DNA from: Chlamydiales bacterium
GTDB taxonomy: Bacteria > Chlamydiota > Chlamydiia > Chlamydiales > SM23-39
Assembly (NCBI GenBank): GCA_028278035.1
Contig: JANQFC010000065.1
Span: 1,558 to 65,557, forward strand
DNA: 64,000 bases
Reading direction: 5' to 3'
Below the pieces are notes generated by a model. It saw only the letters and a program-made list of their open reading frames with translations. It was not told where the DNA came from and did not search any database. The translations under genes and the position numbers were made by a program. Shown here in pieces: positions 18,375 to 18,650 of this stretch (position 1 is the stretch's first letter; each line of letters starts with the position of its first letter).

Positions 18375-18593
18375 ATGAAAACTTCAGCATTTTTAGAAAA
18401 ATTTTTAAATGATTCTCAATTTAGAAAGGATTTAAGACAAGATACTAAAAGGCCTGAAATCAGGGATGAAAAAGATGCACTGGCCAAAATACACTCAATA
18501 TTTATGGATACAGCGTATCCTAACAGCCTGAATAACTACTGTTATGTAGAGTGTGGTCCAACCCCTCCCATCACTCCCTGTTATGTAGAGTGA
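18375..18593 (+). CDS. candidate RiPP precursor peptide (72 aa) with a repeated Cys/Thr/Pro-rich core
   Basis: AGGGGA SD lies 5 nt upstream. The helical leader MKTSAFLEKFLNDSQFRKDLRQD... is Nif11-leader-like. The C-terminus is ...NNY-CYVECGPTPPITP-CYVE-stop. The gene lies 57 nt upstream of a radical SAM/SPASM gene. Confidence 0.6.
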   Translation: MKTSAFLEKFLNDSQFRKDLRQDTKRPEIRDEKDALAKIHSIFMDTAYPNSLNNYCYVECGPTPPITPCYVE

Positions 18594-18617
18594 GGTCCAA
18601 CCCCTCCCATCACTCCC
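18540..18617 (+). repeat. 2 x 39-bp tandem repeat encoding CYVECGPTPPITP; the units differ only at 18554 (T) versus 18593 (A)
   Basis: tgttatgtagagtgTggtccaacccctcccatcactccc / tgttatgtagagtgAggtccaacccctcccatcactccc. Confidence 0.95.
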
Positions 18618-18650
18618 CTTTACAAAAATCAGTAGATAAATATTGAAATA

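What the first reader, a model, noticed from the sequence alone, without database searches (positions are those of the whole stretch)
18540..18635. Perfect 39-bp tandem duplication in the precursor in which the only difference turns a Cys codon (TGT) into in-frame TGA
Unit 1 (18540-18578) and unit 2 (18579-18617) are identical except 18554 T versus 18593 A. Unit 1 therefore reads CYVE-C-GPTPPITP and unit 2 reads CYVE-stop-GPTPPITP. Beyond unit 2 the frame continues for only five codons (LYKNQ) to TAG at 18633-18635. That looks like the original end of a two-repeat precursor.

Three explanations are possible. First, a very recent nonsense mutation shortened the core from two full repeats to one and a third. 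Second, an assembly or sequencing error. Third, low-level readthrough or recoding at this TGA, giving two product lengths. The identity of the remaining 38 positions argues that the duplication, or its homogenisation, is recent.
Basis: seen in the sequence. Interest (0 to 1): 0.6.

Follow-up and report, generated by a model that had tools for sequence, protein, structure and literature searches.

The report
Duplicated RiPP core cut by stop
A small peptide-precursor gene in a coral-associated chlamydial genome carries a very recent 13-codon tandem duplication, and in the second copy a cysteine codon has become what looks like an ordinary TGA stop rather than a selenocysteine or read-through signal, so this is a real but ordinary mutational snapshot.

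Summary
Units 18540-18578 and 18579-18617 are identical except T18554 versus A18593 (TGT to TGA), and the old frame runs on to TAG at 18633-18635.

The ORF (18375-18593, 72 aa) is a genuine RiPP precursor. It has a Shine-Dalgarno-like AGGGGA and a degenerate Nif11-like leader. It sits directly upstream of an intact radical-SAM/SPASM maturase (18651-20066), whose nearest family models are the ACGX-system enzyme and SbtM, both below their cut-offs.

The host is a chlamydia from a coral metagenome. TGA is a normal stop in this genome. I found no support for selenocysteine:
- no SECIS-like structure and no sel genes or tRNA-Sec in the window;
- published surveys report SelD absent from Chlamydiae;
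- no related precursor has a TGA aligned with a Cys.

Two assemblies agree on the A at about 18x depth, but raw reads were not available.

Most likely history: a 73-aa ancestor (...CYVECGPTPPITPLYKNQ), then an in-frame 39-bp duplication, then a nonsense change. The net effect replaces the LYKNQ tail with CYVE.

Related precursors are hypervariable and no strain-level orthologue exists, so the order of events and fixation remain inferred. Interest is low to moderate.

The parts
18364..18369 (+). Shine-Dalgarno-like AGGGGA, 5 nt before the precursor ATG
   Evidence: Read directly in the sequence.
18375..18593 (+). RiPP precursor ORF, 72 aa including the TGA stop. It has a degenerate Nif11-like leader (residues about 5-25, FLEKFLNDSQFRKDL) and a Cys/Pro-rich core, NNYCYVECGPTPPITPCYVE.
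   Evidence: ORF list. hhalign against the precursors of related maturases gives probability 84%, E 7e-6. BLASTP against the L005 precursor gives E 2e-5. It is the only such ORF in the window.
18540..18578 (+). Repeat unit 1, encoding CYVE-C-GPTPPITP, with TGT at 18552-18554
18579..18617 (+). Repeat unit 2, identical to unit 1 except A at 18593
18591..18593 (+). In-frame TGA at the position of the unit-1 Cys codon, read here as an ordinary stop
   Evidence: TGA ends 9 of 44 long ORFs, including full-length MurC-Ddl and AroDE. No SECIS was found.
18594..18635 (+). Former C-terminal tail, now untranslated: GPTPPITP-LYKNQ plus TAG
   Evidence: Its first 24 nt (14 C) and the unit-1 copy are, with one other site, the most C-rich 24-mers in the 64 kb, so the tract looks like recently coding Pro/Thr sequence.
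18651..20066 (+). Radical-SAM/SPASM peptide maturase, 471 aa, intact. It has CxxxCxxC (C18, C22, C25), the SPASM cysteines C317, C320, C326, C329 and C347, and an extra all-helical C-terminal domain at about residues 371-470.
   Evidence: Pfam PF04055 and PF13186 above cut-off. NCBIfam TIGR04340 scores 230 bits and TIGR04082 179 bits, both below cut-off. Conserved cysteines: invariant in the six closest sequences; in the 64-sequence alignment the SPASM cysteines are invariant and C18/C22/C25 nearly invariant. AlphaFold2 pLDDT 94.4. Foldseek best matches are SuiB, SkfB, PqqE, anSME and TigE.

Best explanation
The locus is a two-gene RiPP cassette in a coral-associated chlamydial chromosome: a leader-plus-core precursor, and a radical-SAM/SPASM maturase that presumably modifies the Cys-containing core. 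The precursor gene recently gained an in-frame tandem duplication of 39 bp (13 codons, CYVECGPTPPITP), probably by replication slippage or unequal exchange. A single T-to-A change then turned the ECGP cysteine codon of the second copy into TGA, and the ribosome reads that TGA as a normal stop. The product in this genome is therefore the 72-aa peptide ending ...GPTPPITPCYVE. Compared with the inferred one-unit ancestor (...GPTPPITPLYKNQ, 73 aa), it keeps both original cysteines, gains a third near the C-terminus, and swaps the last five residues for four. Shown: the sequence facts, the precursor and maturase identities, TGA used as a stop in this genome, and the absence of a SECIS. Inferred: the order of events, the maturase chemistry, and that the allele is fixed.
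For: Duplication and single difference. A second assembly agrees at word depth 17.7. TGA ends 9 of 44 long ORFs, including MurC-Ddl and AroDE, which match their family models end to end. Nothing SECIS-like was found: the permissive Rfam scan gave only chance-level hits; the only hairpin contains the UGA in its stem; and the 60 nt after the TGA fold at -4.3 kcal/mol, with 72% of the 2198 TGA triplets in the window having an equal or stronger downstream fold. There is no tRNA-Sec and no sel genes among the window's ORFs (L018 gene table). SelD is reported absent from Chlamydiae in PMC1794560 and PMC5029168. All 16 precursors read next to related maturases end at ordinary stops, with no TGA aligned with a Cys. 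The post-TGA tract is as C-rich as its coding twin and almost unique in the window, and the positional orthologues L099 and L100 also carry tails, Pro-rich in L099, after their Cys cores; both points favour an ancestor translated through GPTPPITPLYKNQ. The maturase is intact.
Against: Raw reads were not available (runs are held as contigs only), so a minor T allele or an uncorrected error cannot be excluded. Only one sample covers the site. No orthologue is closer than 60% maturase identity and the cores are not alignable, so neither repeat number nor the codon at this site could be compared. If substitutions were neutral, only 10 of 234 possible single changes in the two units would create a stop, so the single difference being a nonsense is a mild coincidence; it could point to selection or to the reverse history. 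This TGA is followed by G, whereas all nine genuine TGA stops of long ORFs are followed by A or T, so some leakiness is conceivable. The rest of the organism's genome could not be searched for sel genes.
Confidence: 0.72

Rival explanations
1. Reverse history. The ancestor already ended ...NNYCYVE-TGA (59 aa). The 39-bp duplication, which included the stop, was silent at first. A TGA-to-TGT change in copy 1 then extended the peptide by 13 residues up to the second TGA. The present product and the reading of TGA are the same as in the best explanation.
For: The C-terminus CYVE-COOH would be conserved throughout, and several relatives end two to three residues after a final Cys: PCIFW (L005), PCGD (L002), PCSG (L065), GCDI (L023) and SCGAR (L101). 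The neutral chance of the required substitution (8 of 234) is similar to that of the nonsense route (10 of 234).
Against: It requires an in-frame, Pro-codon-rich tract of 14 C in 24 nt to have been non-coding in a 31% GC genome, where only one other site is that C-rich. The positional orthologues L099 and L100 have long tails after the Cys core, so a Cys close to the C-terminus is not a rule of the family.
Confidence: 0.12
2. The A at 18593 is a sequencing or consensus error, or the minority or majority call at a polymorphic site. In that case many or all cells encode the full two-repeat 86-aa precursor.
For: Only one sample covers the site and only contigs could be inspected; contigs drop rare variants. 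If both units read TGT they would form an exact 39-bp repeat, longer than the 31-letter words of the contig index, and such a repeat is harder to assemble.
Against: Two assemblies (the 186-kb contig that holds the window and Logan's 62.5-kb contig) agree with no differences at mean word depth 17.7. A substitution error in the consensus at that depth is improbable.
Confidence: 0.07
3. Leaky termination. Near-cognate decoding of UGA (by tRNA-Trp or tRNA-Cys) gives a minor 86-aa product alongside the 72-aa one, so that two core lengths are made from one gene.
For: The TGA is followed by G, unlike all nine genuine TGA stops of long ORFs, which are followed by A or T. The downstream frame is open for 13 codons and is an intact copy of coding sequence. 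A low level of UGA read-through is common in bacteria (general knowledge).
Against: There is no read-through-stimulating structure. The perfect identity of the tail is explained by recency alone. No relative shows a conserved stop followed by an open tail at a comparable site. No expression data exist.
Confidence: 0.05
4. The TGA encodes selenocysteine. The second ECGP motif would then be EUGP, a Cys/Sec pair within one peptide, processed by a relative of the thio(seleno)oxazole maturase SbtM.
For: The TGA sits exactly where the twin unit has Cys. The second-best family match of the maturase is SbtM, whose substrates carry Sec. The frame stays open after the TGA.
Against: The maturase scores 179 bits against a 350-bit cut-off, and the match covers only SbtM model positions 199-516, so it lacks the N-terminal 200 residues. 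The precursor does not match the SbtA model. SbtM acts on Gly-Cys/Sec, whereas the motif here is Glu-Cys-Gly. No SECIS was found and downstream folding is below average. There is no tRNA-Sec or sel gene in the 64 kb. Two surveys report SelD as absent from Chlamydiae. Because the 24 nt after the TGA equal the 24 nt after the Cys codon of unit 1, no dedicated element distinguishes the two sites over that stretch.
Confidence: 0.02

Closest known systems
ACGX-repeat peptide system (NCBIfam TIGR04340 rSAM_ACGX, a radical SAM/SPASM protein; its partner repeat peptide is known to me from memory only)
   Same: It is the best-scoring family model for the maturase (230 bits, residues 8-349 covering the whole 341-position model). 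The core holds Cys-Gly dipeptides in short repeats, as do several relatives: L100 has PCGG, TCGIGC and RCGAPC, and L007 has ECGGCGGCGG.
   Different: The score is well below the 400-bit cut-off. The precursor matches no NCBIfam model. The maturase has an extra 120-residue helical C-terminal domain. The motif is ECGP, not ACGx. No paper on the ACGX system was found in the library, so its chemistry is not described there.
SbtM/SbtA thio(seleno)oxazole ('selenobiotic') RiPP system (TIGR04082)
   Same: It is a radical-SAM/SPASM maturase acting on a Cys or Sec next to Gly in a small precursor, and it is the second-best family model (179 bits). The chemistry is described in PMC9204691.
   Different: The score is below the 350-bit cut-off and only the C-terminal 318 positions of the 516-position model are matched. 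There is no SECIS and no Gly-Cys order in the motif. SbtM is reported as limited to Geobacter and Desulfobacteria, whereas this host is a chlamydia.
Nif11-like leader RiPP precursors (TIGR03798, PF07862)
   Same: Precursors next to related maturases pass these models: L019 scores 38.6 bits and L023 37.1 bits. The window's leader shares their N-terminal helix, F-x-x-K-x-x-x-D-x-x-F-R-x-x-L.
   Different: The window's precursor itself matches neither model at E up to 1. It lacks the central ...AGF... part and a Gly-Gly cleavage motif, and no C39-peptidase exporter lies in the window.
Structurally characterised SPASM peptide maturases (SuiB, SkfB, CteB, anSME, PqqE, TigE)
   Same: The fold is shared: Foldseek E-values from 2e-11 to 1e-9 and TM-scores of about 0.5-0.6 over about 350 columns. 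CteB is the nearest by sequence (E 5e-6).
   Different: Sequence identity is 14-19%. There is no N-terminal RRE/PqqD-like domain; the rSAM core starts at residue 8. A helical C-terminal domain is present instead, at residues about 371-470.

Membership tests
Radical SAM / SPASM peptide maturases | Radical_SAM domain with CxxxCxxC, plus a SPASM domain with auxiliary-cluster cysteines | tested here: met
   PF04055 scores 73.8 bits (cut-off 29.5) and PF13186 scores 23.7 bits (cut-off 21.5). C18, C22 and C25 are invariant in the six closest sequences and nearly invariant in 64; C317, C320, C326, C329 and C347 are invariant in both alignments. The fold matches SuiB, SkfB and anSME.
Radical SAM / SPASM peptide maturases | An adjacent small precursor gene on the same strand | tested here: met
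   The 72-aa ORF ends 57 nt upstream of the maturase ATG. The same arrangement is seen in the L002, L005, L019, L023, L100, L101, L102 and L103 loci.
SbtM/SbtA thio(seleno)oxazole system | Maturase reaches the TIGR04082 cut-off over the full model | tested here: not met
   179 bits against a cut-off of 350; only model positions 199-516 are aligned.
SbtM/SbtA thio(seleno)oxazole system | Precursor with a Sec-encoding UGA followed by a bacterial SECIS | tested here: not met
   No SECIS family appears even at E up to 10. The downstream 60 nt fold at -4.3 kcal/mol, weaker than the window mean of -6.4. The only hairpin has the UGA inside its stem.
SbtM/SbtA thio(seleno)oxazole system | Host encodes selA, selB, selC and selD | not testable with these tools
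The literature reports SelD as absent from Chlamydiae.
ACGX-repeat peptide system | Maturase reaches the TIGR04340 cut-off | tested here: not met
   230 bits against a cut-off of 400.
ACGX-repeat peptide system | Precursor with tandem ACGX repeats that matches the family's peptide model | tested here: not met
   No NCBIfam model matches the 72-aa or the 86-aa form at E up to 0.1 or 1. The core has a single ECGP motif, or two if read through.
Nif11-like leader RiPP precursors | Leader matches TIGR03798 or PF07862 above cut-off | tested here: not met
   The window's precursor has no match at E up to 1. Only the N-terminal helix aligns with the relatives' leaders (hhalign probability 84%). The relatives L019 and L023 do pass.
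Nif11-like leader RiPP precursors | Gly-Gly-type cleavage site and a C39-peptidase ABC exporter nearby | tested here: not met
   The precursor has no GG motif, and no such transporter is among the window's ORFs (L018 gene table).

The most novel reading that the evidence does not exclude
The TGA is recoded, either as selenocysteine or by programmed read-through, so that one chlamydial gene yields both a 72-aa and an 86-aa precursor. The longer form would carry Sec (or Trp/Cys) in the second ECGP motif, for an SbtM-related maturase. That would be the first use of selenium, or of programmed recoding, in a RiPP of Chlamydiota.
Probability: 0.03. Interest if true: 0.8.

Novelty: new member of a known kind. 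Interest (0 to 1): 0.27.

Why it matters
The finding shows how RiPP cores diversify. An in-frame tandem duplication followed by a single point change re-tailored the C-terminus of a precursor while the maturase stayed intact. That fits the hypervariable precursors seen next to the conserved maturase in related chlamydiae.

The cassette itself is an uncharacterised system in obligate intracellular bacteria of marine hosts. It combines a degenerate Nif11-like leader with an ACGX/SbtM-related SPASM enzyme that carries a new C-terminal helical domain, and it is conserved next to PhoH2. It could be relevant to symbiont-host or symbiont-microbe chemistry.

The Cys-to-TGA change is most probably just a stop. 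Annotators should not call it a selenoprotein merely because the maturase resembles SbtM.

Tried and rejected
- **Alternative genetic code (TGA as a sense codon):** rejected. TGA ends 9 of 44 long ORFs, including genes with full-length family matches.
- **Selenocysteine:** rejected as unsupported, on the SECIS scans, folding statistics, tRNA scan, window annotation and literature.
- **Strain-level orthologues for repeat number and the codon at this site:** none exist.
  - The word-index search and the exhaustive HMMER search found only the protein itself, plus a spurious repeat protein, P0122.
  - The nearest maturase is 60% identical.
- **A rule that the last Cys lies two to three residues before the C-terminus:** I first saw it in L002, L005, L023 and L065 and thought it showed the short form to be the native architecture. 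I dropped it as a rule after the positional orthologues L099 and L100 showed 45-50-residue tails.
- **Read-level check:** not possible. Only contigs are held; one run covers the site, a second run of the study has only a 157-nt fragment of the maturase gene, and there are no RNA runs.
- **Intrinsic terminator or attenuator between precursor and maturase:** none found.
- **Further copies of the unit or further precursors in the window:** none.
- **Literature on the ACGX system:** no paper found in the library.

Full report
**1. The observation**

The sequence at 18540-18617 consists of two 39-bp units that differ only at 18554 (T) versus 18593 (A). In the frame of the ORF that starts at ATG 18375, unit 1 reads CYVE-C-GPTPPITP and unit 2 reads CYVE-TGA-GPTPPITP. 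The frame then runs LYKNQ to TAG at 18633-18635. The unit occurs nowhere else in the window, even with 3 mismatches allowed, and none is expected by chance.

**2. Is it real DNA?**

The window comes from a coral metagenome. The 72-aa product is on record on two contigs: one of 186 kb, and a 62.5-kb contig from Logan's assembly of SRR20820740. Logan's contig, at mean word depth 17.7, matches 18300-18700 without a single difference.

With the mismatch present, the longest exact repeat is 24 nt, so the assembly is unambiguous. The unit-to-unit junction cannot arise from collapsing two alleles of a one-unit gene (my inference).

No other run covers the site. A second run of the same study holds only a 157-nt identical fragment of the maturase gene, and no RNA runs exist. 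Raw reads were not available, so a minor allele cannot be excluded.

**3. What the gene is**

- **Ribosome-binding site.** The ORF is preceded by AGGGGA, 5 nt before the ATG.
- **Neighbouring maturase.** The ORF ends 57 nt before a 471-aa radical-SAM/SPASM protein at 18651-20066.
  - That protein passes PF04055 and PF13186.
  - Its best NCBIfam models are the ACGX-system rSAM (230 bits, cut-off 400) and SbtM, the thio(seleno)oxazole maturase (179 bits, cut-off 350, only model positions 199-516 aligned).
  - All cluster cysteines are conserved: invariant in the six closest sequences, and invariant or nearly so in 64.
  - An AlphaFold2 model (pLDDT 94.4) matches the SPASM peptide maturases SuiB, SkfB, PqqE, anSME and TigE. 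CteB is nearest by sequence.
  - It has no N-terminal RRE-like domain. An all-helical domain at about residues 371-470 is extra.
- **Leader.** The precursor matches no curated family. Its N-terminal FLEKFLNDSQFRKDL helix aligns with the leaders of precursors that sit next to related maturases (hhalign probability 84%). Two of those pass the Nif11-leader models.

It is therefore a genuine RiPP precursor with a degenerate Nif11-like leader.

**4. The organism and its code**

The maturase's relatives are named Anoxychlamydiales and Parachlamydiales. The window encodes the MurC-Ddl and AroD/AroE fusions among housekeeping genes; those fusions are typical of chlamydiae (my knowledge). GC content is 31%.

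TGA ends 9 of 44 long ORFs, including MurC-Ddl and AroDE, which match their models end to end. TGA is therefore a normal stop in this genome.

**5. Selenocysteine and read-through**

The SbtM resemblance made selenocysteine worth testing, because the TGA sits exactly where the twin unit has Cys. The tests gave no support:

- A permissive Rfam scan shows no SECIS.
- The only notable hairpin has the UGA inside its stem.
- The 60 nt after the TGA fold at -4.3 kcal/mol; 72% of the 2198 TGA triplets in the window have an equal or stronger downstream fold.
- The window has no tRNA-Sec and no sel genes.
- Two comparative surveys report SelD as absent from Chlamydiae (PMC1794560 and PMC5029168).
- SbtM modifies a Gly-Cys/Sec motif and is reported only from Geobacter and Desulfobacteria (PMC9204691). 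Here the motif is Glu-Cys-Gly.

One small oddity remains. All nine genuine TGA stops of long ORFs are followed by A or T, whereas this one is followed by G. Some unprogrammed leakiness is conceivable, but nothing suggests it is functional.

**6. Comparison with relatives**

No protein in two very large collections resembles the precursor, apart from a spurious repeat protein. The nearest maturase is 60% identical.

Three loci are positional orthologues, with the gene order rSAM, PhoH2, 217-aa gene, SH3 gene. Their precursors are:

| Locus | Core and C-terminus |
|---|---|
| L100 | ...SPCGGHTCGIGCQHRCGAPC plus a 45-residue tail |
| L101 | ...NGCISCGAR |
| L099 | ...GCWGSCTLGCTVPSPSQS... plus a tail |

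Other relatives end ...RCASSPCIFW...GNGPCGD...DCETNCQVDPCSG and ...NCNCGHGGGCDI. Some are Cys-free, for example ...GKLGSGGTSY and ...SNFSGFG.

All end at ordinary stops, and none has a TGA aligned with a Cys. Cores, and even leaders, are hypervariable. Neither the repeat number nor the codon at this site can therefore be compared, and my early idea that the last Cys must lie close to the C-terminus did not hold.

**7. Most likely history**

The 24 nt after the TGA (14 C) and their twin in unit 1 are almost the only 24-mers that C-rich in the 64 kb; there is one other site. This is Pro/Thr coding sequence, not typical intergenic DNA of a 31% GC genome. The orthologues L099 and L100 also have tails, Pro-rich in L099, after the Cys core.

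I therefore favour three steps:

1. A one-unit ancestor, ...NNY-CYVE-C-GPTPPITP-LYKNQ (73 aa).
2. A 39-bp in-frame duplication (86 aa).
3. TGT to TGA in copy 2 (72 aa).

The net effect is that LYKNQ is replaced by CYVE and one cysteine is added.

The reverse order (an ancestral stop, a silent duplication, then stop loss in copy 1) gives the same present product and cannot be excluded. Under neutrality either single change is a 3-4% event, so selection on the C-terminus is possible but unproven.

**8. How it probably works**

This is inferred from the families named above. The leader docks on the maturase, possibly on the extra helical domain. The SPASM enzyme then performs radical chemistry on the core, most plausibly at Cys, as either thioether or SbtM-like heterocycle formation.

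No protease or exporter is adjacent. Moving the stop from 15 nt to 57 nt before the maturase ATG could weaken translational coupling; that is speculation.

**9. Verdict**

This is a real, recent duplication in a genuine RiPP precursor. The TGA is most probably an ordinary stop. The cassette is an uncharacterised member of the known rSAM/SPASM RiPP kind.

The recoding reading that would make it remarkable has roughly a 3% chance. It would be settled by a read pile-up, a search of the genome bin for sel genes, and co-expression with mass spectrometry.

Noticed in passing
L099 269-2143; L100 1411-3186; L101 2766-4434 (compare window 18375-24777): The precursor-rSAM cassette lies at the same chromosomal place (before PhoH2, a 217-aa gene and an SH3_3 gene) in at least three other chlamydia-like contigs. 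The maturases are about 60% identical, yet the precursors share neither core nor much leader. In L099 the precursor lies downstream of the maturase instead of upstream.
   Followed up: partly
L020, L021, L024 and L071 (upstream of the rSAM match); L103 2288-2461: Several maturases that are 52-63% identical to the window's have precursors with no cysteine at all, ending ...GKLGSGGTSY, ...GKLQGKLGSFR or ...SNFSGFG. The chemistry of this enzyme family may therefore not depend on Cys. L024 looks like a GKL(Q/G) duplication of the L020/L021 core.
   Followed up: no
P0019 (770 aa) and P0062 (731 aa; same contig as L023): Two homologues of the maturase are fused to prenyltransferase or squalene-cyclase-like repeats (PF00432, PF13243, PF13249), suggesting a second tailoring activity in some members.
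   Followed up: no
window 19761-20063 (maturase residues about 371-470): A confidently predicted all-helical C-terminal domain is conserved in the closest relatives, while the Foldseek alignments to solved SPASM maturases span only about 350 columns (I did not see the aligned ranges). The usual N-terminal RRE is absent, so this domain may bind the leader.
   Followed up: partly
window, nine TGA-terminated long ORFs (for example 8672-9316, 39086-40477, 60878-63253): Every genuine TGA stop of a long ORF is followed by A or T, several within overlapping ATGA junctions of the shikimate operon (40471-44343). The precursor's TGA is followed by G.
   Followed up: partly
window 3460-3832: A tmRNA gene with tag peptide GEDNTLALAA (ARAGORN; Rfam 140.7 bits).
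   Followed up: no
window 60878-63253 and 39086-40477: A MurC-Ddl fusion and a bifunctional AroD/AroE, both chlamydial hallmarks; I used them to place the window in Chlamydiota.
   Followed up: yes
window 15646-15894: An 82-aa ORF holding only an HATPase_c domain, apparently the remnant of a histidine kinase; a candidate pseudogene fragment.
   Followed up: no
window 22661-23434 (minus strand) and 15160-15252 (minus strand): One ORF ends in a natural HHHH tail and a nearby small ORF contains HHHHH. Significance unknown.
   Followed up: no
window 27187-27210: The only other 24-nt stretch in the window as rich in a single base as the repeat's Pro/Thr tract (found at or above 14 C or G; the printed sequence, GCCCTAGCCACAGCCCCATCCACG..., is C-rich). 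It lies inside the CDP-alcohol phosphatidyltransferase gene region.
   Followed up: no
L103 2459-2500: The Cys-free precursor ends ...SGFG-TGA and the frame stays open for 10 more codons before TAA TAA. This is a Gly-TGA arrangement that superficially recalls the Gly-Sec motif of SbtA, but it is probably chance in AT-rich DNA.
   Followed up: no
window 19150-19306 in run X2: A second sample of the same coral study holds a 157-nt identical fragment of the maturase gene at depth about 3. The organism is therefore present there at trace level, and deeper sequencing of that sample could give an independent look at position 18593.
   Followed up: partly
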